Shown here in pieces: positions 3,111 through 52,574 of a stretch of DNA of 64,000 nt; position 1 is the first letter of the stretch, and each line of letters starts with the position of its first letter. The stretch lies in contig NC_083238.1 of NCBI RefSeq assembly GCF_032191835.1, positions 8,184,001 to 8,248,000 of the forward strand. Direction: 5' to 3'. The notes under the pieces were generated by a model. It was not told the DNA's origin, searched no databases, and saw only the letters and a program-made list of their open reading frames with translations. The translations under genes were made by a program, and so were the position numbers. Origin of the DNA: Heteronotia binoei (taxonomy: Eukaryota).

Positions 3111-5116
3111 TTTACATTAGAAGCATTAAAATTTAAAAATAATTTTAAAATAATTTGGTGCTGATTTTTGGTACAGTTTTAAGATGGCGTTCAATGATCT
3201 TAAGCATCCATTAGATCCATTAGATCTAATGTCTCAGTGGTGGTGGTCAGCATTTCAGTTAAATGCTAACTGAAACAACATTGTTTACAAGCCTTGCGGA
3301 ACTGGGCAAGGCTCTGACCACCTTTGATAAGAGTTGGCACTAGGAGTCTTATACTGAGGCTAGCCGTCAGGTTCCTATTTCCACTGGGTGATTCATTGTT
3401 CGTGGTAAATTGCTGCTTCAGGTTAGGAGATGGTTTTCAGCAAAAACTGACCTACGAGAAGGGAAGGGCTGCATATGATGAGTTTTATTTTTTTTTTCTT
3501 AATTGGAAGTTTTCAAGCTAGTTTGCAATAGGGTTTTAATTGAGGATAAATTCAATAAGGCTTCTGAAGTACACATATAATAATCATGTCATAATTTTGG
3601 ACATTGATTGATCAAAGCGTTTGTATTCAGAGCCCTTTGATTTTAGTTGTCAAAGTAATATTGTAGCATGATATATCAACATGCTAATACAAACCAGAAT
3701 CTGGATCTTCGTTTTTTTGCTCGATTAACTTGTTTCTGTTGTTCAGATTATCGCCATTTATCATTTCTACTGCACCTCTCAGCATCCAAAGTATTTCTTG
3801 TTTGTCCTTATAAGTTCTTCATCGGTTAGATCAGTTTTATTTGTTACTTGCAGCATATGTGGTTGTTCCCATGTTTCTCATGGTACATTTTCCACCAAAG
3901 TCATTAGGCCAGATGATGTAGTGATGTACAGCACTAGTCAAAAGTGTCCTAACGATTGCTACAGTTGGGCACAGACATTTGATTTTGGCTCACGTTCAGG
4001 TCATTTTCTATGTTTCGCTAAGATTCTTCAGTAGCATAATGGTGTTTTCAGATTATTCAATCAATATGGTAGTCATTTCCAGGAGTTTCAAGGGGAAGCA
4101 CAGCTCCACCTGTAACTTTTCACATTCAACTGAGATGAAACTTTCATAAACTGAACCCCTCACCATATCCATGCAAAATTGCAGGAAGAGCCCCTCCTAT
4201 TTTACAGACCAATTACATTTCCCTTTTCAGAATAGTTACATAAGGATGTCTTTATAAGCTTTCCTCTCATAACTTTCTGCCCTGGGCTCCATCTGTGACC
4301 TCTTGGCATGTTACTAGTAATAACAGTCCCTTTGAACCTATAAATGTGCTTTTTGTGTGGGGGGGGGAATGGGCTTTTGGATTCTATCATGGTGGGGCCC
4401 AGGTTCTGTCATAGAATTATAGGTAGGATCTAAGATCTGAAAGTATGAGAACAGGAGCATAGGGTAACACTTTGAATGGATGACATGGCTATTAGGTATG
4501 AATCTGACTTGGTTTCTGCCCTCCCACCCACATTGGGATGCTGCCCTGACCTACTCAGTAAATATCAGTGAATGAAACATAAAAAACCCTGAACTCCCCT
4601 AGATGTTTTTAAATGTCAGGTTAGTCACCCCTCCAAGGCTAACCTACAGAGTGTAATCAGAACAGATTTTGATTAGCTACATTCCAAGTACACAAAAGAA
4701 ATGTTCCACAGCAAATCAATAAAAAGGGGCTGCATCACAGTCATGGATTCTGTTGAAATGTTGCAGACGATATGTTGATGTGACCCTAAAGCAAAAATAT
4801 CTATTAGAAAGTTCTGTTCACCATGGGGAGGGCCACACATCCCCAAAATTTTGTTCAAAGAAATTTCCCTGAAAAATGTGGTCATTCTTGTTGCTCTAGA
4901 TTTAGGTGTACTCTACCTTCAACAATATATTTATTCATTCATTGCACTTATATCCCACCCTATCCCGTGATAGGTAAGCTAGCAAGATAAATAAAATACA
5001 ATAAACATATAATTAAAACCAATCAAATAAAACAAGATGGCAGGGAAAACATACATTGCTCAGAGCAGTCCAATACACCACCTGTTGGACATCAGCAGGA
5101 TTGCAACCATCTATAC

Positions 5117-5252
5117 CAGGGGTGGCCAATGGTAGCTCTCCACATGTTTTTTGCCTACAACTCCCATCAGCCCCACCCATTGGCCATGCTGGCTGGGGCT
5201 AATGGGAGTTGTAGGCAAAAAACATTTGGAGAGCTACCGTTGGCCACCCCTG
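5117..5252. mobile_element. Palindromic hAT-type MITE
   Basis: Ends CAGGGGTGGCCAA...TTGGCCACCCCTG are inverted repeats; perfect 8-bp TSD ATCTATAC at 5109-5116 and 5253-5260. Confidence 0.9.
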
Positions 5253-5329
5253 ATCTATACGCTTGCTATGGACAGAGAAAACCAAGGTTATAGAGACATC
5301 TATGACATCAACCAAAGACCTGGTGGAAC

Positions 5330-6000: not shown

Positions 6001-7368
6001 TGTAGCCATGCAGCCATGCTCTTACTGACTAATTTGAGGCCTCATTTTGAACTCTAAAAGCACTTTCAAGAATGTACAGGGTGGTGTGCCAAAATTAAAA
6101 AAATTGTAGCAGTAACTAATGACTAGACATCAACAGGAAATTTCAAAATTTTCAGGAATGTCTGTTAACCAGTGTGCAAATAGGTCTAATAATGGATTTA
6201 GTTATGCCGATTCACTTTCTAGTGACCAGTTAAGTCAGAACATTTTTGGAGCTATATTTATGTAGAGATGATGTGTGTGATTTGGGCTGCCAAAATTATG
6301 AAAAATGCAAATGCCCCCTACTTTTACCTCAGCATATGTGCAAGGTAGCATAATGTTTAAAATACATTTGTTAAGTAGGTCAAGATGTGTTGAATGATAA
6401 TTACTTGGAGTACATGGTGCAAACAAGTCATAAGAACATAAGAGAAGCCATGCTGGTGGAAGCCAGTGGCCCATCTAGTCAATCAGTTAAGTTACTCAGC
6501 CAGTGACCAGTACAGTCAAAAGCAAAAACTATTCAATGAAACATTTAAGGATATAATTGGTCTGAATATAACAAGTATCTCTAATATTTGACATTTAAAA
6601 TCCACATGTAAAAACTTAAGATCTTCACTGGTTAGATATCTCTAACATTTAGAATCTATGCATAAAATTTCATGCCAAATTCTATAGGCTGCTACAGAAA
6701 ATAGCACAGCTAATAGTGACCTGTGGGTTTTCACCATCAAAAGCTTCCTTAAAATCCAGTCCAACACTCTGAGTCACACAGCGGGCAAAACCCAGGTGCA
6801 TCAGGAAGTCCACCAGCAGGGCCAGAACTCCAGAAGTCCTTCCTCCCTAAGCACCAAATAACCTGCTCTTATGATAATAAAACCTTTGGCTTGGTATATA
6901 TTGAACCCATACCAGTTCCCCCTATGTCCCTTCTGCCCATTGCAAGCGGGAGTGAGTGATATGGCAGGCAGTTCATATTGATCATGAGCCGCCTGAACCT
7001 ATTTACTGGGCTGTTTCCTATGCAGGGATACAGACATACACATTTCACAGTAACCTTCCAACCCACTGTTACCTTGCTGTGTTTTAAATGAAGAATGAAT
7101 GAAATAAGCTTTTATTTTTAAAATCTTACCATTAGGTGTTCGTCTATGTCTGCCTGATCAACATTAAGGTCAGCCAATCTGTCTGGAATTGCTGCCCTTT
7201 GCACAGGCAAAGTTGTGTAGTCTCATGGGAGCTGTAGTTTACCAACTACCTTTAGTGACATTTAATTATTTGAGACAATGATCTATCAGCCTGGAGAAAA
7301 ATAGATATCACCTACTGTGCAGGTATAAAAACTGCTACAAGGCAGAAGGAAATGAAATCCCACCACCA

Positions 7369-7880
7369 GGGGAGGAACGGTGGCTCAGTGGTAGAGCATC
7401 TGCTTGGGAAGCAGAAGGTCCCAGGTTCAATCCCCGGCATCTCCAACTAAAAGGGCCCAGGCAAATAGGTGTGAAAAACCTTAGTTGGAGACCCTGGAGA
7501 GCCACTGCTGGTCAGGGGAAGGATGGTGGCTCAGTGGTAGAGCATCTGCATGAAAAACCTCAGCTTGAGACCCTGGAGAGCCGCTGCCAGTCTGAGAAGA
7601 CAATACTGACTTTGATGGACCCAGGGTCTGATTCAGTAGAAGGCAGCTTCATATGTTCATATTAGGGGAGGGATGGTGGCTCAGTGGTAGAGCATCTGCT
7701 TAGGAAGCAGAAGGTCCCAGGTTCAATCCCTGGCACTCCAAAAAGGGTCCAGGCAAATAGGTGTGAAAAACCTCAGCTTGAGACCCTGGAGAGCCACTGC
7801 CAGTCTGAGAAGACAATACTGACTTTGATGGACCAAAGGTCTGATTCAGTATAAGGCAGCTTCATATGTTCATATGTTCA
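7369..7880 (+). mobile_element. Three head-to-tail tRNA-derived SINEs (Squam2-like)
   Basis: Three copies of the A-box head GGTGGCTCAGTGGTAGAGCATCTGC at about 7380, 7525 and 7673; B box GGTTCAATCCC in copies 1 and 3; CR1-type tail AAGGCAGCTTCATATGTTC. Copy 2 is internally deleted. Confidence 0.85.
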
Positions 7881-7999: not shown

Positions 8000-10900
8000 T
8001 CTGATTCATCCAGCTGTGGCAGTCCTTCAGGCAGCTGTGGCTGGGAGTTGCCTTTGTCTCCTCAGAAGAAAAAAAGAGCTGATGAGAGTGGCATTGCTGC
8101 TCCCAGGAGGTTCAGCAGAGGGCAGAACTGACAGGCTTACAGAGTAGCTTCACCCTCTCAGCCTCAACTGCATGCTCAGCCTGGATGCAGCTCTGTGGTG
8201 TAGCTTAGGCCATAGTCTCCTTGTAGGATGGTGGCAAGGCAAGGTGAAGCAACGCTGAGTCAGTGGCAGCTTGCAGCAGCAGCAGCGGATTCCCCTCAGA
8301 GCTGTCCTGTAGGGCGCAAAGGCCCTGGGCTCCTACAGCTTAGTACCCCATTTTCAGTTGCATGTGGGGCATTTGTGGGCGGGGGGGTCACCTCTCTGGT
8401 CCCAAAGATGGCTTTTATGTCAGGGGATGGGGATTTTTACAGGGCTGGCTCTTTCTCCTTCTTGGGTGGGCTCTTCCTCCTAGGAAGCACCTGAAGTGCT
8501 ATGGAGACAGTTGACCAGCTGGGTCCTCCCAACTTGACAGTGGCTGCGGGTGGAGCAGTCCACAAGACTCCAGTCTTTTCTTGGCCTGGATGACCCAGGC
8601 TAGCCTGATCTCAGCAGATCTCGGAGGCTGAGCTGGGTCTGCCCTGATTAGTACTTGGATGGGAGACCACTAAGGAAGTCTAGGGTCGCTATGTAAAGGT
8701 AGGCAATGGCAAACCATCCCTGTCGGTCTCTGTTTTAGGTAGGGCTGACTGCCAACTCATATGTCTTTGGACCCCAGCTCCCTTTTTCCTAGCCAATCAC
8801 TCTCTTACTCCAGCTGGGAAATGAGTGGGGGTAGGGTGGTGGAAAGGAGTGATCTTCTAGTAGGACTGTTCAGAGAGCCAGCTGTAGTGTTGAAAAGAAT
8901 GTAAAAGTGAGTTCTGGGTTGGCAGCCTGCTGGGGGGTCCTGGGGACCCCCTGGAACTATAGCTCATCTGCAACTTGGAGAGATCTGTTCACTTTGGGAA
9001 AATGGATGCTTTGCAGGACCAGCTCTATGGTGTGCTTCACTGGGGTCCCTGTCCTCCCCAGGGTCCACCTTCAATGTCCCAACCTGGAACTGGCAATACT
9101 GAGGGATGGAAAGAGAATCATCAGGGAAGTTCCTGTACCAGGAAGCAACAGGGGCACGGACTAGCAGCTGGGTGGAGGCAGAGAGAAACACGGTGGTTTG
9201 GAGACCAGATCTAGAAGGACAGGAAGAGAGAAAAGAGAAAGGGACAAATGGAGTAGCAAGGGAGAGAGCTGAAAGACAGTAGCAAGGGAAGGCAGAAAGG
9301 AAGCTGATTATGCTTTGCTTGGTCACATCAGATGAGAATGCTTTTAGTTGCATGGTGTTTTCCAGGTGGCACAAATAAGAGAAGCTACTTCGCTAATAAG
9401 TAAGGCATTTTAATTATCTGAGTCATTCACAAAGAATATATTTCAGACAACGGCATATAGATGTTTGTTTGTTTTATTTTTGGAATTTCTATTCTGCCCT
9501 ACCCCACAAGTGAGTCCAACAATAAAACCATACATTAGATTAATTGAAAGAATTCATTAAAACATTATCATTAACATTTAAAATTAATTAACTCATTTAA
9601 ACACTTGTTGGCTGCTCAGTGAATGGTTTTATATTTCAGTGCAGGCTGAGCTCATGCCAGGGAGGTTGGTGATGCACTCTAATTAAAATAAGACAGTCAC
9701 TCTTGGTGCCCATAATATAATGGAGCCTAGCTGCTTAAAGCAGGGGAGACTGAAGTTCTTTGACATCTGCTGCGTCAGCCAAAGGCCTAGCAGAACAGCT
9801 CTGTTTCTCACATCAAAGTCCAAACTTTGATGTGAGAAAGAAGAAACTAAGGGAAGGGGGCATCTGATCAAAGAACCTACCGATCGCCAATGGCCAACTG
9901 GTCACTGAGGTTCTTAATTATGCTGGTGGTGGTTGGTCCTGTCCTCAGAGAGCACTACCCTTAATTCAGCATTTGGACATAGTATAGTAAGGTATTCAGG
10001 TTTTGCTGGAGACATGGCTCCAATACAACAAGGAGTTCCGTACGCGGGCGGCAGATTCATCTGCAATTGTGGATGTAGGTCATGTACCCAGCAGAACCTC
10101 TGGGTGAAGAATGGTTTGATAGTGGGCACATCACACACAGGCTCTCTGGTTCTGTAGGCACCAGTGCCGATGTATGGGTGATCAACAGTGCATTCTTTGC
10201 AAGGAGTTTGGCCCTCAAAGGGTGTGCTGCCATAGGCCTGAAGTTCTGGCACGAGTGCCCTCTGGCAGTGCCTTCATCAGTGCCCTAGGGGATACTTGGT
10301 TAGGATTTAGGGACCAACAAGGGGCTAAGCAGCCTGGCAATGGGGGTTTCTACCCACATTTTATGAAAGGAGCTCGGTCCAATTGAATGGCGTGAGTGGG
10401 AGTGGTGGTTTTAACTAAGTTAGTGGGATGACTGCTCTTTTGTTGGAGGGCTTTGTTATGTTTTCCATCAACCCCTCCAGGCTGTGTGGCTCAGGGCCGG
10501 GAATGCAGGCTGCCTGTGGTACCACCCTGGATAGGTCCTCTTCTCAAGTTGTGCAGCTTGGGGGAGGGGGGGAGGCTGGAGCTCCAGGTGGCAGTCTGAT
10601 ATCCTGACTGGATTTGAGCCACATAAGGATAGCTCACGCCAGGGGCAAGGTGGCTCACCCAATATAGCAAGGATGCCTTGACCTATCCCACATTGTTAGG
10701 GTGGCCCTTGCCACTGACATCATGTAAATAGTTGATAAAGTGGCCCTTATTTATCCCAACCTAGTGTCTGTCTCTTTCTTCCAACTGTGGGGTCAATCCA
10801 GTTCACCCAGCTTGGCACACTCAGTTGAGGCACTTGCAGCCAGGAGCAGCTGTTGCCTCCCCTGAAGGAGGAAGGGGTGATGCATTGCTGTTCCCAGGAG

Positions 10901-11525
10901 GATTCACAGTTTTATAGGGTGGCTCCGCCTCCACCTTCTCAGCTTCAACCACATTCTTGCCCCACCGTCTTGCCCAGAATGCAGTGCAGGCTTTGGCTGG
11001 GTGCCGTTTCATGGGCTGGATAGGAATTTTTCGCCCCTTACTGATTGGCTTTATATTTTGGGAGGGGGGGGGGGTTGCCTACCTTGCACTATTGTCTGTA
11101 AAAAAAACCTGGACAATTGGGTTTGGTGGTGCTGTTTAAATAGATTTGGTCACTTGGCAGGTTATTGTAGGGAAAAGAGAAAACGGATTTGTGAACACCA
11201 TTTGGAACCCCCACATTTTGGGGGACAAGGGGTCCGTCAGGATCAGCTTTTGGGTTGTATGGCTCAAGGCTGGGAATACAGGCTGCCTGTGGTACTGCCC
11301 TGGATAGGTCCTCCTCTCAAGTTTGTGTCTTGGGGGGGCTGGAGCTCCAGGGGGCAGTCTGCTATGCTGGCTGGATCTGAACCACATGATAGGTCATACC
11401 AGGGGCAAGGTGGCTTGCCCAATATGGCAATGAGGGGTTTGGGGCAACCCCTGACCTTGAGCTATCCCTCATTGTTAGGTTGGCCCTTGCTCCCTAGCAT
11501 TGAGTAATTAGTTAATAAAGTGGCC
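8000..11525 (+). mobile_element. Decayed, internally deleted Ngaro-like element (gag remnant plus split direct repeats)
   Basis: Direct repeat 10488-10746 / 11261-11525 ends in (A/G)ATAAAGTGGCC like the B repeats of the 24-31 kb element. An A-like segment near 10800-10965 resembles 8005-8180. The gag remnant 9860-10380 reads IYAG...QHLDIV...WLQYNKEFRTRAA and KFWHECPL across frameshifts. Confidence 0.65.
8584..8732 (+). mobile_element. 5S rRNA-derived SINE with RTE/BovB-type tail
   Basis: 8600-8668 (GATCTCGGAGGCTGAGCTGGGTCTGCCCTGATTAGTACTTGGATGGGAGACC) follows the 5S A-box/IE/C-box region and is followed by GGCAATGGCAAACCA. Confidence 0.75.
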
Positions 11526-12058: not shown

Positions 12059-12489
12059 GAGACAGAGGTAGAAAGAAAGCAACTTTGAATGCATTCTCCA
12101 AGCTGCTGGTTGGTTTGGCTTGGAGAAGTGATTTAAAGGACAAATGTCTTCTCCAAGCTGGCTGATGGGGCTATAGCGACTTTGAGAGCCACGCAATAGA
12201 TGAGAAAGAGCCACATGTGGCTCCTGAGCCGCAATTTGGCCATACCTGATGTGCTCCTTATTAATCCCAAGCTGGTGTTCATCTCTTTCTTCCGATGGTG
12301 GGGAGGTATGTTCCCTTGATGAACATGTTCACTGAGAAGATCTCAACACTTCCATGGAACTATCAAAATGTACCAATATTTTCACTCCACATGACTGGGA
12401 ACACAGAACATGGAGGAGGGAATATGCAGTCAAATTGCAACCAGTTTATGGCAACCCTATCATGGGGATTACAACACAAAAGAGTAGCA

Positions 12490-14518: not shown

Positions 14519-14712
14519 CAGAAGAAGAAGAAGATGATGATGATATTGGATTTATATCCCACGCTACACTCCAAATCTCAGAGTGGTTTACAATCTCCTT
14601 TACCTTCCCCTCCCAACAGACACCCTATGAGCCGGGTGGGGCTGAGCAAGCTCTCTCAGGAGCTGCCATTCCAAGGACAGCTCTGAGATAGCTATGGCTG
14701 ATCCAAGGCCAC
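14519..14712 (-). mobile_element. Squam3-like SINE, 5'-truncated
   Basis: (GAA)n tail followed by GATATTGGATTTATATCCC...CAGACACCCT, the same body as the 55.5-56.4 kb and 62.7 kb copies. Confidence 0.8.
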
Positions 14713-24179: not shown

Positions 24180-24408
24180 GTTTTAACCTGTCTGTCTTTT
24201 TTTTTTTTGGAAGGCAAGTCCTCTGACCTGCCTGGCATTTGTGAGGAGAAATGGTTTCATCTAGTGGTGATGATGGCTCCATGCCCAGGATGACTGTGCA
24301 AGAACAGTGGCCTGAAACAGAAGCAGTGACTCCCAAGGCATTCCTATGTACTTGTGGGGCAGTCAATTCAACCCTGCCTGTTCTGTTGGGAGTTCAGTGT
24401 GCAACAGG
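24180..24408 (+). mobile_element. Older Ngaro-like element, left part (gag up to the zinc finger); left boundary uncertain
   Basis: cagtcaattcaaccctgcctgttctgttgggagttca...gtgtgcaacagg aligns with gag 26792-26852 of the young element. Confidence 0.6.
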
Positions 24409-24591
24409 AAGGTCCGGCCCTTACCCAGCCGAGCCTGCTTGCAGGTATTGAGGCTGGGGGCCGTCTTTGCCCCTCCCGGAAGGAGGGAGGAGCAGCATAA
24501 CCCGATATACGGGTGTTTGCTGGGGCGGGGAATCAGGGCTTTATAAGCCTCGGTTCCCGCCCTCCTGCCACGCAGTTTGTTTGGCTCTCTG
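24409..24591 (+). repeat. Split direct repeat A1 (copy A2 at 30531-30712)
   Basis: Hand alignment: 8 substitutions and 1 indel in 183 bp. Confidence 0.95.
24522..24546 (+). promoter_or_regulatory. Putative Pol II promoter in repeat A (GC box plus TATA-like)
   Basis: GGGGCGGGG at 24522-24530 and TTTATAA at 24540-24546, about 25-30 nt before an Inr-like GCAGTTT and a GTGAGA donor at 24593. Confidence 0.55.
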
Positions 24592-25488
24592 GGTGAGAGA
24601 GCCACGTGCGTCGGGAGCGTTGCGGCGGCGAGGGACCTGAGCGGGAGCGGTTGGACGGCGCGGCCCCGGCTCCTTCGGCTCCTTCCCTCATTCGGGCAGC
24701 GCGTGCGGTGCGTGCGGCCAGCTGATCGGCGCTGCGAGGCTGAGTCTTTTTGCGCGGCGTTTTCTGTGGCCTGGGTGGCCTGGGCCGGGGAGGCTTGCGC
24801 AGCTAAGTCCTTCGGGCTGTACGGGGCGCGGGCGACAGGGGAGCAGCGCTTGCGAGGCCGTGTGGGGGCAGTTCTGTGGGCCAGCTAGCGGCCCGAGCGG
24901 AGGCCAGCGCGGTGCTAGGGCTTTACGGTGCTGGGCTACAGGCCGGCCACGTTGCCTTACAAGGAGGAGGAGCGCAGCTTTTCACAGTCGGTTGGTGGTC
25001 GCAAGCGCTGGGCCAGCAGTAGGCAGTAGCCTCGTGGTTGGGTTCTACTGAAAGGGGGTTCCTGGTGCCTATTAGGGCCTTTCCACACCCGGAGCTGGGT
25101 GGGTGAGGCATTTGGCCTGTTAGTGGTTAGGCCCTGCTGGCAGGTAAACCCCTTCCCCCCCCCCCGTTTTTTCCTTTTTTCTCTGGCCACGTTGGTTTGA
25201 GCCTGCTTGGCTAGTGGTTGGGGTGAATTGGGCGAGGCTTTCCTGAAACGCCCCCCCCCCCCCTGACCTCCTTTCCTTGTGCACAGGGTGCAGTAGTTTG
25301 GGGCACTGCTGCCTGGGGGCTCGATTGGGGTCTCTTTTTTCGTTGGTGGGCAAGAGTGCGTGGGGACGTCTCCTTTAATTCTAACCCTCCTTCCACCACA
25401 TTAATTGGCAAGGGAGTGCTGGGAGGGAACCCTTTGAGTGGGGTTGCAGTCACCCCTGCTTTTGGCCAGTGGCATAGAGGCATTTGGG

Positions 25489-27013
25489 ATGGCACCCAAA
25501 AAAGGGCAGGGCAAATCAAAGGGCAAACAGCCCGCCCGCCCACCCCATGGGCGGGGCCAGCAACAGCCCCCGGTGGAAGAACAGGTTGAAAGTGAGCAGG
25601 TGCGGCTGGCCATTATGGGCCAGCTGGATGCCCTAGAGCAGGAGAGAGTCGCTAGGGGCGCTCCCATTTGGGAGGGACGCCGCCGGGCCTCAGGCCGGTC
25701 GGCAAGGCTGACCTTTAAAACAGAAGTGCTCGCACGTCTTTCTGCTTTACAGGGTGGGGCAGCTGAGACCGAAACACCACTGGAACCGGACCAGGAGGAG
25801 GATCCGGAGGAGGGCCCATCGGGTGTGGCACCGGGCGGCGGTGCACCTGGCAGCAGTGAGCTTCGCACCCCGGGTGGCGCCGGGGTCTTCACGGGTGACG
25901 GTGGTAAGCCCCTTTTTCAGCCAAGTCATGGGTGGCTGTGGGGCCCCATTCAACCTCCTCCCCCCCAGCCGGTGCAGGGTGGGACATTTTGGGGTGTGGG
26001 GCAGCTAGGAGTCAGTGAGCAGTTGGGTCCTGTCCAGCTGTGGGCTTGGGGTTTTCACACACCTAGCCCGCTGCCCAACTTGGTCATTCCTCCAGTTGGC
26101 AGGCAGGCAAGCGCCATCGCGCCACCTGCTGTTTCTACCCCCCCCGTCCACACCTGACATTTTGCTGTGGGGTGGTCAGCAGTTTGCTCAGCTTCAGGGG
26201 GCTTGGCCAGTGGCTCAGGGTAGTGGGTGGTTTTACCCCCCTAACCCTTATGCCAGCATTCCCTTTCATGTTCTCCTATATGGGGATACCTCCTTACCCC
26301 TGGGTGACCATTTGACAGTCGCTAAGCGGGAGAAAATTCTCCGCGGTGAATACGTGGACGTCTTCAGTCTCCTATTCAGAGAGCTCGAAAAGAAGAATAA
26401 GGACGAGCTTCATGATAAGGAGAAGGAGAAACTGAAGAGGAGAAAAGTGGATAGATCTTGGGCGAATTGGTTGCCGGGATTTTTTATCTATGCCGGAGTC
26501 ATTGCAAGAGCGCAGCCGGCTAGGGCGGCCGCCCTCTTTCAATATATAGACATTGTATATCGGGCGTACACGGACTTCGCCGGTGCAGCATGGCTGCAAT
26601 ATGACGAAGCTTTCTGGATGAGGGCCGCAGTTAATCCTGGAATGCCGTGGGACCAAATAAACCAGCAGCTGTGGTTGCAGCTGATGTCCCCAGCGAAACC
26701 AAATGCTGGGGACAGGTCCGATAGCGGCCATTTAGTGCTGAGGGTGCAACAACAACAACAGTCTTCTACAGGGGCCCGCGTCACCGCGGGCCAGTCAGTT
26801 CAAACCCAGTTGCTTTGCTGGGAGTTCGCATCCAAGGGTGTGTGTCCCAGGAAGCCCTGTAGGTTCCGGCATGAGTGCCCTCTCTGCGGCGGACCCCACG
26901 CACTGTTGGCCTGTAGCAGATCTAAGTTTAGGCTGGGCAGCAAGCGCCCTGGGGGCGGTCAGAACCCCCCTGGTAAAGGGGCCCAGCCCCATCCGCCTGA
27001 CGGCTCTCAATAA
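25489..27013 (+). pseudogene. gag: Ngaro gag (one frameshift near the C8 run at 26138-26145)
   Basis: ATG in gggATGg context (MAPKKGQG). ORFs 25438-26157 and 26015-27013 join on removal of one C. Motifs NWLPGFFIYAG, WLQYDEAF and zinc finger CWEF...C....CRFRHECPLCGGPH. Confidence 0.85.
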
Positions 27014-28559
27014 GTGGTTACGCTTATACCCGTGCACGGCCGATGCTCGGTATTTGCGTGACGGGTTTAGCTTAGGTTTTCGGATTCCCTATCAGGGGCC
27101 TAGGGCCCCCTTTTTGGCTCCTAATTTGTGTTCTGTTGTTGGGCTCGAGCACGTGGTCTGGGAAAAAATAGCCAAAGAATGTCTGGAAGCACCACCGGTT
27201 CCCACGTTGAGGGTATCGCCCTTGGGGGTGGTTCCCAAGAAGGTTGTGGGTGAATATCGCATTATTCACCACCGTCGTACCCTAGGGGAGCATCGGTAAA
27301 CGACGCTATTCCCGAGGAATTATGCTCGGTGCGTTATACCTCCTTTGACCAGGTGGTCAAAGTGGTGCGGTCCTGCGGGATTGGGGCAGAGATGGCGAAG
27401 TGCGACATTAAGTCAGCTTTTCGCCTCTTGCCTGTTCACCCCGGGGACTTTGAGCTACTGGGTTTTTGCTTTGAGGAAAAATTTTATATGGACTGGGCTT
27501 TGCTGATGGGTTGCTCGATTTCTTGCGCGGCGTTTGAGCGCTTCAGTTCCTTTTTGGAATGGGCGCTCAGGCACAAGACCGGGGTCAATGCTACGGCGCA
27601 CTACCTGGACGACTACCTTTTTGTCGGTCCAGCGGGATCTGAGCAATGCGCCAAGTTGCTGAACGCATTTCAGGAATTAGCCCTCGAACTCGGGGTGCCC
27701 TTGGCACACGAGAAGACTGAGGGGCCAAGCACGGTCCTCACTTTTTTAGGCATTGAGCTTGACACTTTGCAACAAACGTCACGTTTGCCGGAGGCCAAGG
27801 TCGCCGACCTGAAGGCCCGGCTGGCCACTTTGAAGGGGCAGCGGAAGGTTTCGCTGCTGGAACTACAGCAGGTTGTGGGCCACCTTAACTTTGCCTGCAA
27901 AGTGGTGGCCCCAGGTAGGGCTTTTTGTAGGCGCTTTTGTGACGCTATGGGCCGGCTGCGCCTCCCCCATCACAGGGCCCGCGTTACTTCTGGAATGCGA
28001 GCAGACTTGGAGGTCTGGGAGGATTTTTTGGAATCTTTCAATAGCGTTTCTTTCTGGAGGGAGGATCTGAAGGTAGAAGCAAAGCTTCAGATTTCTTCTG
28101 ACGCCTCCGGTGCCAACGGTTTTGGTGTATTTTTTAGAGGACATTGGTGCGCGGAGCAATGGCCCGCGGAATGGTTGGATAGCGGGCTCTGTAGGGACCT
28201 GACGTTTTTGGAATTTTTTCCCATCCTGGTGGCCGTTTGGCTCTGGGGGGAGCAGCTAGCCAACCATTCGGTCCTCTTTTGGTGCGATAACTTGGCGGTC
28301 GTCCATGTTATCAATTCTTTATCTTCTAAATCTGTGTTGGTTATGAATTTGGTTAGGTCTTTCACCCTGCGTTGCCTCCAGTTGAATATTTTATTCCTGG
28401 CTAGGCACGTACCTGGGGTATGTAACAGGGTGGCGGATGCTCTGTCTCGCCAACAGATGGAGCGTTTTTGAGAACTGGCCCCAGAAGCAGATCCTTGGCC
28501 AGCGAAAATGCCAGAGGAACTGTGGCGTCTTGAGAAAAGGAAGCCGGTAGGGCCATTCA
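26970..28559 (+). pseudogene. Ngaro reverse transcriptase/RNase H (small deletion, 1-nt frameshift near 27273, internal TGA at 28469)
   Basis: VSPLGVVPKK, IIHH/LSYP..SVND, KCDIKSAFRLLP, MGCSISC..FE, HYLDDYL, FLGIELDT; RNase H SDASGANGFG, LEFFPI, WCDNLAVV, NRVADALSR. Confidence 0.9.
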
Positions 28560-28560
28560 G

Positions 28561-29436
28561 TTGGCACTAGCTCCTAGCACCAGGAAGGCGTACGACAGAG
28601 CGTCCATTCAGTTTCGGGAGTTCAGAAGTGCGGCGGCACTGCCTGACCTTTGGCCGTTCCCTGTGGAGCACATTATGCATTTCTGTGTGCACCAAAAGGA
28701 AAGAGGCCTGGGGCTGAAATCCATTCGGGGCCAACTTGCAGCATTGGCTTTTGCTAGCAAGGCCCGTGGTTTCCCAGAATATACTAGCGATTTTAGGGTT
28801 AGAAAAATGCTCGAGGGTTGGGCCCGGGAGCGTGCCCAGCGGGTTGATGATAGGCAACCTATATCCCCGTCTGTCCTTCGTGGGTTGTTTGGGGGTTGGC
28901 CCTGTGTTTGTTCCTCCCCCTTTGAAGCAGCATTGTTTCATGCTGCCTCACTGTTGGCCTTTTTTGGGGCCTTGCGTGTAAGCGAGCTGGTAGTTCAGTC
29001 CAAGGCTGATACTTCTGGGAGGGCGCTCCAATCCAAGGGTATCAAAATTGCTAACAGTCAGCTTGTTCTGACAATTCGCCGGTCCAAGACTGACCAAAGG
29101 CAGAGGGGATCCGTCATCACGATCGGTATGTGCTCCATTCAGGACTTATGTCCGGTCAGGGCTGTCCGGCGTTACATTCGCGTTAGAGGGAATGTTGAAG
29201 GCCCCTTTTTAAGACATGCCGACGGCTCCCCTCTCACCAAATATCAATTTTGGAAGGTCACAAGTAGGGCTCTGGCCAGGTTGGGTTTACAAGGCTTCAA
29301 ATTTGGAACACATTCCTTTAGGATTGGGGCGGCCTCCACAGCCGCTTCTATGGGTTACACGCCCTCTGCCATTCAGCATATAGGCCGATGGCGGTCGTCG
29401 GCTTACAAAACGTATGTTCGCCCTTTGGTCACCTAG
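28561..29436 (+). CDS. Tyrosine recombinase, open frame with catalytic R-K-H-R-Y residues
   Basis: LAPSTRKAY, FFGALRVSEL (R), RSKTDQ (K), HSFRIGAAS (HxxR), GRWRSSAYKTY (W, Y); 291 aa without stops. Confidence 0.92.
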   Translation: MALAPSTRKAYDRASIQFREFRSAAALPDLWPFPVEHIMHFCVHQKERGLGLKSIRGQLAALAFASKARGFPEYTSDFRVRKMLEGWARERAQRVDDRQPISPSVLRGLFGGWPCVCSSPFEAALFHAASLLAFFGALRVSELVVQSKADTSGRALQSKGIKIANSQLVLTIRRSKTDQRQRGSVITIGMCSIQDLCPVRAVRRYIRVRGNVEGPFLRHADGSPLTKYQFWKVTSRALARLGLQGFKFGTHSFRIGAASTAASMGYTPSAIQHIGRWRSSAYKTYVRPLVT

Positions 29437-29504
29437 ATGTAGGTGGGGGGCCTGGTGGGGTTGTATTGTTGTTACCGTATGTTGACAGTTGTTTGTCTTT
29501 TCAG

Positions 29505-30100
29505 GTGCTGGTGCTCGTGGTGAGAGACGTCGCGTTCTCATCTGCGGGCACAGCATGGTTTTCTGGGCTGCCCATTTCACCAGACGGTCTTCAGTGGGCA
29601 CCCAGCTTGGCCTCAGTGCGTGGGCCACTGTGGATTGGCTGGGTCGTCGGGGGCTGCGCTGGCCCGGTATCATGCCCCTGCTTTTCAGGGAATGGAAGGC
29701 AGCACCTCCACACATTCTTGTCATCCATTTGGGTGGGAACGACTTGGGGCTGCTGCATGGGAAAGCTCTCTCCCAGCAGGCCTTGGCCAACCTCCGGGAA
29801 ATTCGGCGGAGGTGGCCTGGGGTTATCTTGGTTTGGTCGGCAATTTTGCCGCGTAGAGTGTGGAGGCATACCATTTCACCGGGCGGTGTGGAACGAGCCA
29901 GGCGTAAAGCCAATCGGGCTATTCAGAAAGCTATGGAGGGGGGACTAGGAATCTTTCTCCCACATCCGGCCATACGGGTCGAGCAAGTTGACTTGTATCG
30001 GCCGGATGGTGTTCACCTTTCTGATTTGGGTAACCGGGCCTTTTTAGACGAAATTCGGCAGGGGGTGCGGTTGGCTCTGGGCCAACCGTTGGGGCGCTAA
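29505..30100 (+). CDS. SGNH/GDSL hydrolase (esterase-like) domain, probably a spliced exon
   Basis: Block I VLICGHS, block III VIHLGGND, block V DGVH; open to TAA at 30100. First ATG follows the catalytic Ser; polypyrimidine-AG acceptor at 29503-29504. Confidence 0.88.
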
Positions 30101-30129
30101 TGCCAAAGCAGAGGCTTGGCATTGGCGGT

Positions 30130-30530
30130 GGCTAGAGGAGGTTGGCCACAGGGTTTTCCAGGGGAGCACCTATGGCCTAGCACCGTTGGTGCGGTGGTCT
30201 GTATGAACCGTAGATGGGCTACACGGCTCAGTGCGGGGATTGCAGATCACAGGGAGCCTCACCTGGGCGGATCTTTCCACGGGGATTGATGCCGGCTTGG
30301 ATGGTGGTGGCTCGAGGCCTGGCTGCTCAGCTACAACCCGAATTTGGCGGGCTTGTGCTGGGGGCAGGGTGGCTCGCCCTTTGGACAAGGCGGGGTCTGG
30401 GGTTGACTCCAGGGCTTGTCTGGTCAGGTTTTCACCCCTCCTGCCAGTTACAGTTATTTAATGTTTTAATAAAGTGGCCCGGTTTTAAACCCAACACTTG
30501 TGTCTGCTTCTTCATTCCGACTGGGGGGGC
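30130..30530 (+). repeat. Split direct repeat B1 (copy B2 at 30880-31280)
   Basis: Both copies 401 bp, about 10 substitutions by hand alignment. Confidence 0.95.
30468..30473 (+). terminator. Polyadenylation signal in repeat B1 (second copy at 31218-31223)
   Basis: AATAAA followed by CA and a GT/T-rich stretch (TTGTGTCTGCTTCTTC). Confidence 0.6.
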
Positions 30531-31280
30531 AAGGTCCGGCCCTTACCCAGCCGAGCCTGCTTGCAGGTATTGAGGTTGGGGCTGTCTTTGCCCCTCCCGG
30601 AAGGAGGGAGGCGCAGCATCACCCGATATACGGGTGTTTGCTGGGGCGGGGAATCGGGGCTTTATAAGCCTCGGTTCCTGCCCTCCTGCCATGCAGTTTG
30701 TTTGACTCTCTGCCCACCCACCCTCCCTTTGGCAGTACAGGCGTTTGCCGGTCGCCTTTTTTAGGGGCCAGGTAGGAATTTTTTTGCTTCCACACAATTG
30801 GCTTCTGTGGGAGTGTTTTTCACCTACCTTGTACTGCCTTGTAGGTTAGGAGTTGTTAGCGGTAGTTGTCTTGGTCGCAGGCTAGAGGAGGTTGGCCACA
30901 GGGTTTTCCAGGGGAGCACCTATGGCCTAGCACCGTTGGTGCGGTGGTCTGTATGAACCGTAGATGGGCTACACGGCTCAGTGCGGGGATTGCAGATCAC
31001 AGGGAGCCTCACCTGGGCGGATCTTTCCACAGGGATTGATGCCGGCTCGGATGGTGGTGGCTCGAGGCCTGGCCGCTCAGCTTCAACCTGAATTCGGCGG
31101 GCTTGTGCTGGGGGCAGGGTGGCTCGCCCTTTGGACAAGGCGGGGTCCGGGGTTGACCCCAGGGCTTGTCTGGTCAGGTTTTCACCCCTCCTGCCAGTTA
31201 CAGTTATTTAATGTTTTAATAAAGCGGCCCGGTTTTAAACCCAACACTTGTGTCTGCTTCTTCATTCCGACTGTGGGGGC

Positions 31281-32010
31281 AAAGCCTGCAAGTACTGCTA
31301 TGTGTATCCCCTGGGTGTAGGATCTCATTCATTCATGGCTTGCACTAGGGCTAACTTCCAAGAGGGATCTAAATGTTTAGCAGGAGGAAGTGCCAACCAG
31401 CCTTCTGGTAAAGGAGTCCAGACCAATAAAACTGAAAGCACTTGAGAGCTTGCTTTGAATTTACCCCCAAAGTGGTGGTCAATTATATTTGTTACAGGGT
31501 TTCATTTTTAGTTTGAGGATTACTTTTCAGGGCCCTAAGTCCACATTGACTTAAGATCAGTCAAAGCTTGGAACATGTGGTTAGAGAAAAAACAGCCAAG
31601 GAACAGCAGGAAGGAAGGCTATCTTGGGCCCCTTTGCTTCCCCTTCAGTTCCTAACCTCCATGTCTCTCCACTTGGTCTGGTGCTTAAGAAGGCCCTCGG
31701 GGAGTAGATTAATTCACCATCTTTCATACCCTTCTTGGGGGGTGGGAGGTGTCAGTGAATGACCATATTCCTAATCAACTATGTTCTGTGAGTTATGCTT
31801 CCTTTGACTGAGCTGTATGTGCAGTATGATGCTGTGGAGTGGGAGCTGAAATGATGAAGTGTGACACCCAAAAGTGAAAAGGAGGGGTCTGGGGTAACCC
31901 CGGCTTGCCCCATTTTGCATTGGTTGTCCTTTCTTACTTGTACCATGCAAATAATTAATAAAGTGGCCCTTTAGTTATCCCAGCTTTGTTGTCTGTCTCT
32001 CTTCTGACTA
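31281..32010 (+). mobile_element. Older Ngaro-like element, right part (zinc-finger end, RT start, B-repeat end)
   Basis: KACKYCYVYPLGVGSHSFMAC...PSGKGVQT; then GYLGPF..P...LHVSPLGLVLKK...RLIHHLSYP..SVND across frameshifts; ends with AATAAAGTGGCCCTTTAGTTATCCC like the other B repeats. Confidence 0.8.
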
Positions 32011-48403: not shown

Positions 48404-48689
48404 GAGCGTTTTCGCACTCACCTTCAGCCGGCGCGACACCCCTCTTCACCGCGCAGGATCTGCGCAGATTTCGCACTTAAAGCCTCGGAGCAGCCGAAAG
48501 AGCCGGAAACTCCCGGCGCAAAAGCCGCGCAAATGGAAACTGCTTTTTGGCGGTTTACATTTGCGCCGCAAAAGCGCCGGGAGTTTCCGGCTCTTCTGGC
48601 TGCTCCGTGGCTTTACGTGCGAAATCCGCGCAGATCCTGCGCGGTGAAGAGGGGGGTTGCGCCGGCTGAAGGTGAGTGCGAAAACGCCC
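48404..48689. mobile_element. Palindromic Harbinger-type MITE
   Basis: Near-perfect fold-back, ends GAGCGTTTTCGCACTCACC / GGTGAGTGCGAAAACGCCC, TAT duplicated on both sides. Confidence 0.88.
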
Positions 48690-51305
48690 TATGATTTTTA
48701 TCTCTGTATATTCTTAGTTCTTTAATGATTGTGTGAATGCTAGTGTAACTGTGTGATTGTGTGATCTTTAATTCTCAATAAAAACACCTTGAATTTTTAG
48801 CAACCAATCTCCTCATACTTTATTGAGACTCTGGGGAAGTCTAACTCCCTTAAACACACGTTGTTGATCCTGCTCTTGCCATTTACTTATTAATTTTAAT
48901 TCCCTAATTCAATCTCAGAGGCAATTTGGTTAACACTGCCTTGTAGAAGCCTCCAATAACAGGTTGGGGTCTTGTACCCTGGGCCAAAAACTCTCCACAA
49001 TGTCCCCTCCAAGCAGAGATCCTATGACACCCCTGAGACCTCTCATCAAGGCAAATGTGTCTATCCAGGAGGAGATGGAGCTGAATAATGGGAAAGAGAA
49101 TCAAGGTGGCTATGCACCCAAGTCAGGGACCAAGGGAAATGAGAAGCCTTTGTGGGGGTGGGGGGAGACATGGGGCTTCTTGCCATCATGAGGTACATAG
49201 ATGAGGGTCAGGAGTGCATCAACAAGCTGCTGGGGAACCTGTTATAGTCTCTCTGAAGGCCCTGCCCCCTGTACCCTCTGACCCACTTTGCTCCCCCTTT
49301 AGTGGGGTAAAATGAAGGTTGGCGCAAGGATGCCATCAACAGCATGAGTGCCCTGCTGGATGGTACATCCCCCAGAGAGTACAGGGCACCCCCACATCCA
49401 CCTTATTTTCCATCATAGCCCATGGGGGTCTTTGCATTCTGTGTGTGAAGTGTCAATTTGGGGTGCCAGTTGGTGCTCCTCTCAACTGACAGGTGGCCAG
49501 GGCTTCTGATAGGAGGTGATTTATTTAAGGAGGGGTGTGTTGCGGTAGAGGATCATGACTCCTCTGGCCTGACCCTCTCCACCCCTGGCCAGTAATGGAT
49601 GCTTAGCTCAACAGCCTTGACTCTTGACTCCCATTGGTCCTGCCTGCCTTGTTTATCGTGCCGCACCCACCTAGCAACAATGTTGGGACGGTACGCTGTG
49701 GCAGAAATGTCACAGATTCCACAGCAGCAGCATCCAGCAACACTGATGTGGCACCTTCCCCCCGTTCAGCCACTGTACGACTTTCCTCCCGAGGGGAGTG
49801 GCGAGTGGCACGACAGCCACAGCACAGGTGCCGCATAGGATTGCTTTGTCCAGCATGTCTGGTCATTCAATAATAATAATATAATAAATTTTTATTTATA
49901 TCCCGCCCTCCCCGCCAAGGCAGGCTCAGGGCGGCTTGTGAGAATTATCTGATTTGAGTCAGCCTATTTGATTTTTAAATATACATTTCCTTAGCCATAG
50001 ATGCAGTGAAAATGCAGAAACTGTAGGGAAAAAAAAGAACCATGATAGATAGCTTCTTAATGGGTAATACTGGGAAATACACTGTTGTGTGGGGTGGATA
50101 AGGAGGAGTAGCTCTACTTTAAAAGTCTGCGTTTCCATGCTTTTTGTTACAAGGAACTGAGTACCTTGGGAAAATCGCTACAAAACGTGTTGCATAATTT
50201 AAGTAGCCCCATGATTTTGGCTGGCCAAAAATACTGTGAAAATTAGTAAATAAAAAGTATAAAGCTTCTGAGACTGCACTATGTGAAAAAGGTGACCTCA
50301 AATAGAAATCATTGCCCCAGGCAAACCCCTATTCACTGGAGATGGTTTAAGAGAAGGTCTGATCTTTTCCATTTTGTTTTTCCTCGATGATCTACCTCTG
50401 CTGGTTTTTTAGGGATTCCTCTATATTTCTCTCTCGGAAATGAGTCTGAGACTCTGAATCTCAAGAAGAAAGAAATATCATTGATTAGACTTATGTCTTA
50501 TTTCTGAAATATACAAATGTAAACTACGGTACATTCACAGTATGTTTCTTAAGCATTCTACATCTAATAATAATAAATTTTTATTTATACCCCGCCCTCC
50601 CCACCGAAGCAGGCTCAGGGCGGCTTGCAGGACATGGTGGGTCACACCATGATGTAACAATAAATACAACATAACCATTAAAATACATTTCTTAGACCAG
50701 CGATTAGATTAAAATTTACATTACAGCATAAATTAATGGTGCTACATTCTTAATATACACCACAACAACAATATCTACAACAACATACATGAAAGGAATA
50801 TGCATCTTGATTGGCATTTCCCTGATGAACAAAGAATTGAGCATATTTTAAAGTGAAATATATTTGTTGCAGCAGCATTATTCTATCATGGTACTGAAGC
50901 TTTTTAAAAAAAGACAGTTTGGATTTTAAATATTACTGAGACACATTTTAGGGTTAGCCTCCGTGACAAACAGAAGGCTGTCCCACCCCGAGGGGCTAGC
51001 TGATATAATATGCGTACCATGTACGTGGTTTTTAATATCTGCACAAGAGTCTCATCAACATGTGTTGGCATTTACAAGTATTATTTATGCTGTATGGAAA
51101 TCAAATATACTGCGAAGGCAGGGACAAGATGTGGCAAGGATTTAATTTGAAGCTGCTTTTGAGGCCAAGGAAGCAGCAGCAAGCCTGGCCATTGTGCCAG
51201 GTTTCTGGCAGGCTACATGGTCTGGCCATAGCCAAGGCCCGACAGTGACAGTCACCCCTGGTGTGCAAGATACACATTTGGAGCAGGATATGGGGTGTGA
51301 ACACA

Positions 51306-51518
51306 TGAACATATGAAGCTGCCTTATACTGAACCAGACACTTGGTCCATCAAAGTCAGTATTGTCTACTCAGACTGGCAGCGGCTCTCCAGGGTCTCAA
51401 GCTGAGGTTTTTCACACCTATTTGCCTGGACCCTTTTTGGGAGATGCCAGGGATTGAACCTGGGACCTTCTGCTTCCCAAGCAGATGCTCTAACCACTGA
51501 GCCACTGTCCCTCCTCCC
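51306..51518 (-). mobile_element. Squam2-like tRNA SINE
   Basis: Reverse complement of the 7664-7880 copy, including A and B boxes and tail. Confidence 0.88.
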
Positions 51519-52308: not shown

Positions 52309-52574
52309 GGTCGTTTTCGTACTTACCTTATTCCGGAGCGACGTCCCGCTTCACCGCACAGTGTCTGCGTGGATTTCGCACTACTTGCTCCGCAGAACCT
52401 GGAAGTCCCACGGCTTTTGTGTCGCAAATGTAAACCGCCAAAAACCAGTTTACATTTGTGATGCAAAAGCCGCGGGACTTCCGGGTTCTGCGGAGCAAGT
52501 AGTGCGAAATCCGCGCAGACGCTGCGCGGTGAAGAGGGACGTCGCTCCGGAATAAGGTGAGTGCGAAAACGACC
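52309..52574. mobile_element. Palindromic Harbinger-type MITE related to 48404-48689
   Basis: Fold-back with ends GGTCGTTTTCG / CGAAAACGACC; TSD not conserved. Confidence 0.8.

What the first reader, a model, noticed from the sequence alone, without database searches (positions are those of the whole stretch)
25489..30100. Predicted spliced Gag-N/SGNH-esterase fusion protein encoded by a Ngaro retrotransposon
Seen in sequence: the SGNH ORF keeps GHS, GGND and DGVH but its first ATG lies immediately after the catalytic Ser, so it cannot be translated alone as an active enzyme. It is preceded by a strong acceptor (TGTTGAC...TTGTTTGTCTTTTCAG/G, AG at 29503-29504) in phase 1. Gag has a strong donor GGTG/GTAAGC (GT at 25904-25905), also in phase 1. 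Joining them gives MAPKKGQG...VFTGDG-G-AGARGERRRVLICGHS...: 138 + 1 + 197 = 336 aa with no stop. This splice skips the zinc finger, RT and YR, and avoids all the lesions in gag and RT. Established: some vertebrate Ngaro elements carry an SGNH hydrolase, and esterase domains in some LINE ORF1 proteins are linked to lipid or membrane binding. Inference: an env-like subgenomic mRNA makes a Gag-tethered lipid-binding or esterase subunit. I do not know of this splice being described.
Basis: partly seen in the sequence, partly recalled or inferred. Interest (0 to 1): 0.85.

Follow-up and report, generated by a model that had tools for sequence, protein, structure and literature searches.

The report
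Spliced Gag fusions in Ngaro retrotransposons
A jumping gene in lizard genomes appears to use RNA splicing to attach the front part of its packaging protein to its esterase enzyme, and probably also to its integration enzyme, which would explain how two genes that lack a usable start signal get made.

Summary
Confirmed and extended. The window holds a full-length, dead Ngaro retrotransposon (24409-31282). The donor (GT 25904), acceptor (AG 29503-4) and the open 336-aa join are as stated. Relatives support it: 31 gene models, 25 of them named and from 8 lizard species, are GagN-SGNH fusions, and 31 of 31 carry a G-first-codon residue 14 positions before GHS, where the window's junction falls. 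Three fusion/Gag pairs diverge at that point, Gag going on as G-K or G-E, the imprint of a phase-1 G|GTRAG donor. New: one leopard-gecko locus has an unspliced-Gag isoform and a GagN-recombinase isoform from the same donor. Its acceptor maps to window AG 28455-6, in frame with YR. So one donor and two acceptors likely give Gag, GagN-YR and GagN-SGNH, where a review (seen only as a quote) suggests frameshifting for YR. Limits: every named fusion is an NCBI gene model of unseen RNA support; 0 of 23 contig-derived SGNH proteins were fused; YR rests on three models; function is inferred. Not found in ten literature searches.

The parts
24409..24591 (+). Split direct repeat A1, with GC box and TATA-like TATAA at 24542 (likely promoter)
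   Evidence: 95.1% identical to A2 over 183 nt; TATAA position
24592..25488 (+). Leader with no ATG before the gag start
   Evidence: 0 ATG in 1080 nt from A1 to the gag ATG, 5.8 expected, P about 0.001; 0 in 919 nt after TATA, 4.0 expected, P 0.015
25489..25903 (+). Shared coding exon: Gag N-terminal module (basic start, two short helices, disordered linker), 138 codons plus 1 nt
   Evidence: 48% identical to P0014 over 93 aa
25904..25909 (+). Phase-1 splice donor GTAAGC; read through as G-K in unspliced Gag
25904..27013 (+). Rest of gag (W/G/P-rich linker, conserved Gag-C, CCCH-type finger); frameshifted in this copy between about 26133 and 26171
26976..28570 (+). RT/RNase H, broken in this copy (short deletion near 27190, frameshift near 27273, premature stop 28469-71); route of expression unknown
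   Evidence: PF00078 E 2.8e-9; breaks; end read
28430..28456 (+). Second phase-1 acceptor (AG 28455-6), inside the RNase H ADALSR-Q-Q codons, in frame with YR
   Evidence: three models join 37 residues before APST, as this site predicts; crude score rank only 27 of 260
28457..29436 (+). Tyrosine recombinase exon; stop at 28531-3 in this copy; first in-frame Met is 72 codons in
   Evidence: ungapped 323-aa match, 196 identical, to P0216 from the residue after its junction; PF00589 E 7e-6
29480..29504 (+). Phase-1 acceptor for the SGNH exon (branch-like TTGAC, pyrimidine tract, AG 29503-4)
29505..30100 (+). SGNH esterase exon: GHS 29546-54, GGND 29732-43, DGVH 30005-16, stop 30098-100; calculated pI 11.8
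   Evidence: PF13472 E 7.2e-11; motif coordinates read
30130..30532 (+). Split direct repeat B1 with AATAAA at 30468
   Evidence: 97.5% identical to B2 over 403 nt
30531..30712 (+). Split direct repeat A2
30880..31282 (+). Split direct repeat B2 with AATAAA at 31218; element ends in AA shared with the target, no target duplication

Best explanation
Squamate Ngaro elements make their proteins from one start codon by alternative splicing. Scanning from the A1 promoter crosses an ATG-free leader to the gag ATG. Unspliced RNA gives Gag and serves as genome. One phase-1 donor about 125-200 codons into gag is joined to an acceptor 14 codons before the esterase GHS (GagN-SGNH, about 340 aa) or to an acceptor in the RNase H tail (GagN-YR, about 465 aa). 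Shown here: the sites, phase and open frames in the window, and the same junctions in gene models of relatives. Inferred: that the models reflect real RNAs (about 0.9 for SGNH, 0.65 for YR). Inferred further (about 0.45): the shared basic-plus-two-helix module is an assembly tag that brings esterase and recombinase into the Gag/RNA particle, and the basic esterase binds or slowly cleaves membrane lipid, as measured for the ZfL2-1 ORF1 esterase. This copy is dead, and its intact fusion frame needs no selection to explain it.
For: 31 GagN+SGNH models among 216 proteins fetched; 25 are named, from 8 species; they form 14 clusters at 70% SGNH identity, median identity 50%. Residue -14 is G 20, D 9, E 1, A 1, so 31 of 31 have a G-first codon; the other 25 positions from -30 to -5 reach at most 20 of 31. 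P0014/P0062 and P0017/P0063 share exact 49- and 44-aa blocks ending at the junction, and P0033/P0071 diverge there too; Gag continues G-K or G-E. Two isoforms of one Rhineura locus enter the same 205-aa C-terminus from different upstream points. Two isoforms of one Eublepharis locus are Gag and GagN-YR from the same donor. The GagN profile hits 6 contig-derived full-length Gags at E 2.5e-11 to 1e-24, so the N-terminus is Gag's. All 3 contig-derived SGNH ORFs that reach -15 read [L/T/A]-G, as a phase-1 YAG|G acceptor requires. All three catalytic motifs are present in 27 of 31 fusions; the Met after GHS in only 12 of 31. The first YR Met in the window lies inside the region matching the SAM-like domain. 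No slippery heptamer lies in the RT/YR overlap. The best PDB sequence match is the ZfL2-1 ORF1 esterase, 4C1B, E 1.5e-6.
Against: No RNA reads were seen. All 25 named fusions are NCBI gene models whose support level I could not see; such models can be ab initio or carried over by protein alignment (PMC12605758, passages). 0 of 23 contig-derived (Logan/ENA/JGI) SGNH proteins carry GagN. The donor imprint depends on how the anchor is defined: 11 of 13 Gags, 10 of 13; contig-derived ones alone give 4 of 7, P 0.09; the window size was chosen after seeing the data. YR rests on three models, two of them chimeric with extra junctions (P0141, P0029); both of those have a Met just before the YR core, so their families may not need the splice; the window's YR acceptor scores weakly. 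Several contig-derived ORFs start with M shortly before GHS (P0013, P0039, P0040), though callers may write M for GTG/TTG. The GagN helices are low-confidence in the model (pLDDT about 50-62). RT expression is unexplained.
Confidence: 0.8

Rival explanations
1. The fusions are annotation artefacts: gene finders join a gag fragment to the SGNH frame through whatever GT/AG is at hand, and the model spreads between species by protein alignment.
For: Every named fusion is a predicted model; 0 of 23 contig-derived SGNH proteins are fused. Some models are plainly chimeric, joining YR, Gag-C or host genes to SGNH.
Against: The junction is fixed at -14 across families only about 50% identical, inside an otherwise unconserved linker. 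The imprints appear in unspliced contig-derived ORFs that no splice-aware program made: acceptor 3 of 3, donor 4-5 of 7. The window, read blind, gave the same junction. Isoform pairs at single loci use the same sites.
Confidence: 0.08
2. SGNH and YR are translated without splicing, by ribosomal frameshift, reinitiation or near-cognate starts; the splice is minor or absent. This is the published suggestion for YR.
For: Poulter and Butler 2015, as quoted in PMC13003380, think frameshifting probable for YR. In Xenopus elements all ORFs are said to overlap. Near-cognate TTG 29489 and ATC 29540 exist. Some families have a Met at the YR start.
Against: In this copy the YR stop and the open SGNH frame are 49 nt apart, so no frameshift can join them; no slippery heptamer lies in the RT/YR overlap. 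The ATG after the YR stop is followed at once by a stop. It does not explain the conserved acceptor and donor imprints.
Confidence: 0.07
3. The splice is real but has no use to the element: cryptic or host-imposed splicing that removes RT and lowers genomic RNA, with the fusion protein a by-product.
For: No protein-level evidence. Cryptic donors in YR and host exons also reach the SGNH acceptor in models. The ZfL2-1 ORF1 protein is dispensable in HeLa cells (PMC3905857).
Against: Phase, acceptor position and catalytic residues are kept across divergent families, and the esterase has no other conserved start.
Confidence: 0.1
4. The database fusions come from internally deleted genomic copies in which GagN lies next to SGNH, not from splicing.
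For: No genomic DNA of relatives could be read here; deleted Ngaro remnants exist in this window.
Against: Isoforms of one locus differ at these junctions (P0210/P0211, P0063/P0216), and breakpoints match GT and AG in the undeleted window copy. Copies with such precise junctions would themselves be reverse-transcribed spliced RNAs.
Confidence: 0.04

Closest known systems
Ngaro-like YR retrotransposons with a hydrolase ORF (Xenopus DIRS-53_XT, DIRS-54_XT; 10.1101/2021.08.05.455354, passages)
   Same: A1 / B1-A2-B2 split direct repeats; gag, RT/RH, YR, then SGNH.
   Different: Described as four separate, overlapping ORFs with a hydrolase of 'no proven function', and said to be amphibian; the text has no occurrence of 'splic' or 'intron'. 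Here the element is squamate and SGNH and YR are exons fused to Gag's N-terminus.
ZfL2-1 ORF1p of a CR1/L2-type LINE (PMC3905857: abstract, introduction, passages, discussion; PDB 4C1B)
   Same: Helical self-association region, basic motif and C-terminal SGNH esterase in one chain; basic esterase (pI 10.8 there, 11.8 here); best PDB sequence match.
   Different: There it is the unspliced ORF1 and replaces Gag. Here it is built by splicing and sits beside a true Gag. Dimerisation, activity and liposome binding are measured there and untested here.
Spliced subgenomic RNAs of LTR elements: env of retroviruses and errantiviruses (recalled); ORF3 messages (PMC5408684, passages); plant Ty1/Copia short Gag RNA (PMC5580714, abstract)
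   Same: Splicing of the genomic RNA sets which protein is made; bdelloid LTR elements even carry a GDSL esterase as ORF3.
   Different: Copia splicing yields Gag alone; env messages carry little or no Gag (recalled). Here a 138-aa Gag module heads two different enzymes, one of them the integration enzyme.
LAP2alpha and ZNF451 isoforms (PMC4495291, abstract)
   Same: DIRS-order coding sequence recruited as a spliced exon of host genes, a parallel for the host-like SGNH fusions noticed here.
   Different: Those use DIRS1 gag in mammals, not the Ngaro esterase, and are host events rather than the element's own expression.

Membership tests
Ngaro-like YR retrotransposon | Split direct repeats A1 ... 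B1-A2-B2 | tested here: met
   A1/A2 95.1% over 183 nt, B1/B2 97.5% over 403 nt
Ngaro-like YR retrotransposon | Order gag, RT/RH, YR, with YR overlapping the RT end | tested here: met
   PF00589 scores 26.4 bits, just under its 27.1 cut-off
Ngaro-like YR retrotransposon | No methyltransferase domain; optional SGNH after YR | tested here: met
   Pfam scan of the six ORFs found no methyltransferase; PF13472 follows YR
Ngaro-like YR retrotransposon | Insertion without a target-site duplication | tested here: met
   only AA is shared at the two ends, and the interrupted older gag continues across the insertion
Ngaro-like YR retrotransposon | RT/RH groups with the Ngaro clade in a tree | not tested
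SGNH hydrolase | Blocks with Ser, Gly, Asn and DxxH | tested here: met
   GHS, GRRG, GGND, DGVH in the window; 27 of 31 fusion models keep all three motifs scored
SGNH hydrolase | SGNH fold | tested here: met
   model of relative P0011 (not the window's product); listed Foldseek matches are SGNH-type hydrolases such as PAF-AH, or designed scaffolds
SGNH hydrolase | Esterase activity | not testable with these tools
   needs an assay
ZfL2-1-type esterase ORF1p | ORF1 of a non-LTR element that lacks Gag | tested here: not met
   spliced product of a YR element with its own Gag; works like it, is not a member
ZfL2-1-type esterase ORF1p | N-terminal coiled coil that self-associates | tested here: inconclusive
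ZfL2-1-type esterase ORF1p | Basic or arginine-rich motif | tested here: met
   7 K/R in the first 25 residues and an R-rich stretch between the helices
Retroviral-type env | 3' ORF made from a spliced subgenomic RNA | tested here: inconclusive
   strongly supported by gene models and imprints; no reads seen
Retroviral-type env | Membrane-fusion glycoprotein fold | tested here: not met
   fold is an SGNH hydrolase
Retroviral-type env | Signal peptide and transmembrane anchor | not tested
   no predictor run; none evident by eye

The most novel reading that the evidence does not exclude
Ngaro elements across vertebrates use a 'one Gag head, several tails' plan: a single donor in gag is spliced to separate acceptors for the recombinase, the esterase and perhaps RT, so each enzyme carries the same assembly tag. 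The GagN-esterase rebuilds the layout of LINE esterase ORF1 proteins and gives the particle a membrane-binding subunit. Because the esterase is a ready-made phase-1 terminal exon, hosts have captured it more than once (cold-shock-domain/SGNH proteins, tandem inactive SGNH proteins).
Probability: 0.35. Interest if true: 0.85.

Novelty: new variant of a known kind. Interest (0 to 1): 0.72.

Why it matters
How YR retrotransposons translate their downstream, often ATG-less frames, and what the Ngaro hydrolase does, are open questions; the papers seen call the hydrolase's function unproven and quote frameshifting as probable for YR. This gives exact junctions that public RNA-seq can confirm quickly, names the real proteins to express (GagN-SGNH, GagN-YR) instead of truncated ORFs that lack the catalytic serine, and explains a family of 'uncharacterized' lizard gene models as transposon products. 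It also links Ngaro to the lipid-binding esterase of LINE ORF1 proteins.

Tried and rejected
Looking for a fused protein from a transcript contig: none among 23 contig-derived SGNH hits; the search scored only the top 8000 candidates. Accession-level look-up of cluster members could not be made, so RNA support of the models stayed unchecked. Complex prediction of GagN self-association was not available; no verdict. Other Ngaro remnants in the window have no GagN or SGNH match and could not test conservation. Supplements of the Xenopus paper could not be read; they hold ORF tables that may bear on starts and overlaps. GagN has no Pfam or PDB match. A third acceptor for RT: candidates at 26916, 26919 and 26931 are in frame but score weakly (ranks 38, 46, 101 of 260), and no search was seeded with RT or YR, so it is neither supported nor excluded. 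Rejected: reading the intact fusion frame in this copy as domestication (chance explains it); a YR-to-SGNH frameshift in this copy (49-nt gap); other in-phase donors at 25592, 25754 and 25823 as the main one (the Gag/fusion pairs and the distance to the W-rich motif point to 25904). Atlas look-ups gave only SGNH or hypothetical clusters for P0014.
Full report
What is there. The finding lies in a full-length Ngaro-type element at 24409-31282. Self-comparison gives A1 24409-24591, B1 30130-30532, A2 30531-30712 and B2 30880-31282, with A1/A2 95.1% and B1/B2 97.5% identical. Inside are gag, RT (PF00078, E 2.8e-9), a tyrosine recombinase (PF00589, E 7e-6) and an SGNH frame (PF13472, E 7.2e-11). 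The copy is dead: gag shifts frame between about 26133 and 26171, RT has a short deletion, a frameshift near 27273 and a stop at 28469, and the YR frame has a stop at 28531. The nearest relatives found are leopard-gecko models at 60-68% identity, so the host is probably a lizard (inference).

The observation. All stated coordinates hold, and the join gives 336 open codons. The first ATG of the SGNH frame follows the catalytic Ser, and the frame opens 49 nt after the YR stop, so neither that ATG nor a frameshift can give a whole enzyme in this copy. No ATG occurs in the 1080 nt from A1 to the gag ATG, against 5.8 expected, which fits all messages starting at gag. By a crude matrix the donor ranks 3 of 421 and the acceptor 4 of 438. 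This is not proof: 4 of the 10 well-scoring acceptors downstream of the donor would leave over 150 open codons.

Relatives. A search with the SGNH frame returned 61 proteins, many of 320-357 aa. Two more searches and one profile search brought the set to 216. A GagN profile built from 14 of the fusion models marks 39 of them: 31 GagN+SGNH, 6 GagN+Gag-C, 1 GagN+YR and 1 GagN+YR+SGNH. These proportions reflect my queries, not abundance. The six GagN+Gag-C proteins are contig-derived and score E 2.5e-11 or better, which shows the fused N-terminus is Gag's. Of the 31 fusions, 25 are named: Eublepharis 10, Rhineura 5, Elgaria 3, Anolis sagrei 3, and one each from A. carolinensis, Heteronotia, Hemicordylus and Gekko kuhli (a record flagged unverified); 6 are unnamed. 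They fall into 14 clusters at 70% identity. P0141 was left out of the 31 because it also holds YR.

The junction. In a phase-1 join the hybrid codon starts with the donor exon's last base, usually G. At -14 from GHS, the window's junction position, 31 of 31 fusions have such a residue (G 20, D 9, E 1, A 1); no other position from -30 to -5 exceeds 20 of 31. Fusion and Gag models of the same families share exact blocks that stop there: 49 aa for P0014/P0062 and 44 aa for P0017/P0063, with Gag going on G-K as in the window; P0033/P0071 part at the same place, Gag G-E, fusion D. Two isoforms of Rhineura LOC133382123 reach the same 205-aa C-terminus from different upstream points. Three fusion models align to the window without gaps from exactly 29504. 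In unspliced Gags a [GSRC][KE] pair, which N|GT RAG must encode, lies within 18 residues before the W-rich motif in 11 of 13 or 10 of 13 with a different anchor (P 1e-4); for contig-derived Gags alone it is 4 of 7 (P 0.09). These windows were chosen after seeing the data and the sequences are related, so the P values are generous. All 3 contig-derived SGNH ORFs long enough to show -15/-14 read L-G, T-G or A-G, as a YAG|G acceptor requires.

The second acceptor. P0216 (Eublepharis LOC129341561 isoform X1) is GagN joined to YR at the same donor, while isoform X2 of that locus (P0063) is unspliced Gag. The window's YR frame from 28459 aligns to P0216 from the residue after its junction, 323 aa without a gap, 196 identical. 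P0141 (Rhineura) and P0029 (Elgaria) join at the same point, 37 residues before APST. In the window that point is CAACAG|ATGG, AG 28455-6, phase 1, within the RNase H ADALSR-Q-Q codons. The first Met of the window's YR frame is 72 codons in, inside the stretch matching the SAM-like domain. Against this: only three models, two with extra junctions and their own Met near the YR start, and a weak site score (27 of 260).

Evidence not obtained. Every named fusion is an NCBI model. That pipeline combines RNA and protein alignments with ab initio prediction (PMC12605758, passages), and the support for these models could not be looked up. None of 23 contig-derived SGNH proteins is fused; that is expected if the contigs are genomic or unspliced, but it is a miss. 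No reads and no DNA of other copies were available.

The protein. A model of fusion P0011 shows two short helices (pLDDT about 50-62), a disordered linker and a confident SGNH domain; Foldseek returns SGNH hydrolases. The best PDB sequence match is the ZfL2-1 ORF1 esterase (4C1B, E 1.5e-6), which is ranked only 48th by fold. That protein has a dimeric coiled coil, an arginine-rich motif and a slow, basic esterase that binds anionic liposomes (PMC3905857; abstract, introduction, passages and discussion read). The window's esterase exon has pI 11.8, and 27 of 31 fusions keep GHS, GxND and DGxH. I infer that GagN is an assembly tag and that the esterase targets the particle to membranes. Neither step was tested.

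Literature. Ten searches found no description of these splices. The Xenopus study lists four overlapping ORFs and a hydrolase of no proven function (passages; supplements unreadable). PMC7192593 and PMC6681497 (passages) mention the hydrolase without a route of expression. PMC13003380 (sections 2.7 and 3.4) reports testis-expressed newt Ngaro elements and quotes Poulter and Butler 2015 that YR is probably made by frameshifting; I did not read that review, Goodwin and Poulter 2004, or Repbase reports, and the library lacks most subscription journals. Spliced subgenomic RNAs are known for Copia Gag (PMC5580714, abstract) and for ORF3 messages (PMC5408684, passages). PMC4021074 (passages) concerns an unrelated Helitron-borne SGNH gene.

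Breadth and side findings. A second N-terminal module is fused to SGNH in 12 models, 7 of them the seeds of the profile, including Rana temporaria P0213; it resembles amphibian Ngaro Gag starts by my recall only. Cold-shock-domain proteins of 900-2040 aa end in a related SGNH domain with catalytic motifs mostly intact, and other long proteins carry tandem SGNH copies lacking DxxH. Each forms a strongly supported clade among element-type domains in midpoint-rooted trees with a weak backbone (the second used 58 of 199 domains). They may be host captures; direction and taxa are unknown.

Verdict. It is a new variant of splicing-based expression in retroelements, already sitting unrecognised in gene annotations. 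Interest 0.72.

Noticed in passing
window 24237-24408 and 31283-32005: The element is inserted into the zinc-finger codons of an older, internally deleted Ngaro copy: Gag-C match on the left, finger, RT pieces and an Ngaro-type end on the right. May reflect sequence-specific targeting by the recombinase.
   Followed up: partly
window 9937-10264 and 10732-10796; 12251-12303: Another degenerate Ngaro Gag-C followed after about 470 nt by an Ngaro-type end, with a 270-nt repeat (10480-10745 / 11253-11525) and a further end at 12251; no SGNH or GagN match.
   Followed up: partly
proteins P0121, P0123, P0125, P0152, P0173 and relatives: Long cold-shock-domain (CSDE1-like) proteins ending in an Ngaro-type SGNH with mostly intact catalytic motifs; one clade; Atlas cluster of 78 members. 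Possible domesticated esterase; one literature search found nothing.
   Followed up: partly
proteins P0078, P0079, P0083, P0084, P0089, P0093, P0100, P0104: Proteins of 1200-3100 aa with 2-6 tandem SGNH domains that lack DxxH; two separate clades. Possibly non-catalytic binding repeats of element origin.
   Followed up: partly
proteins P0205, P0087: Models that append the SGNH domain to host PRP39 or a dual-specificity phosphatase, as exon capture by the SGNH acceptor would give.
   Followed up: no
P0213 (Rana temporaria) and 11 unnamed models: A different conserved N-terminal helix pair fused to SGNH through a long linker; may be the amphibian version of the same splice, not shown to be Gag.
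   Followed up: partly
window 26960-27015: Gag end and RT start overlap with K-G-A/P read in both frames; the only Met upstream in the RT frame is at 26871. Route of RT expression unexplained.
   Followed up: partly
window 25103, 25144, 24593 (donor-like) and 25286 (acceptor-like): High-scoring splice-like sites in the leader suggest a possible 5' UTR intron; an acceptor-like site at 25752 is the top scorer in the element.
   Followed up: no
window 55493-56311: Six head-to-tail copies of a 104-nt unit related to dispersed repeat ends at 14529, 49873 and 62722.
   Followed up: no
window 48406-48687, 52309-52574, 5100-5269: Long near-perfect hairpins (arms 80-138 nt, loops 6-12 nt); the first two are related to each other.
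   Followed up: no
window 7368-7735: Three tandem tRNA-like heads about 150 nt apart, with an inverted copy near 51297-51440; looks like a SINE cluster.
   Followed up: no
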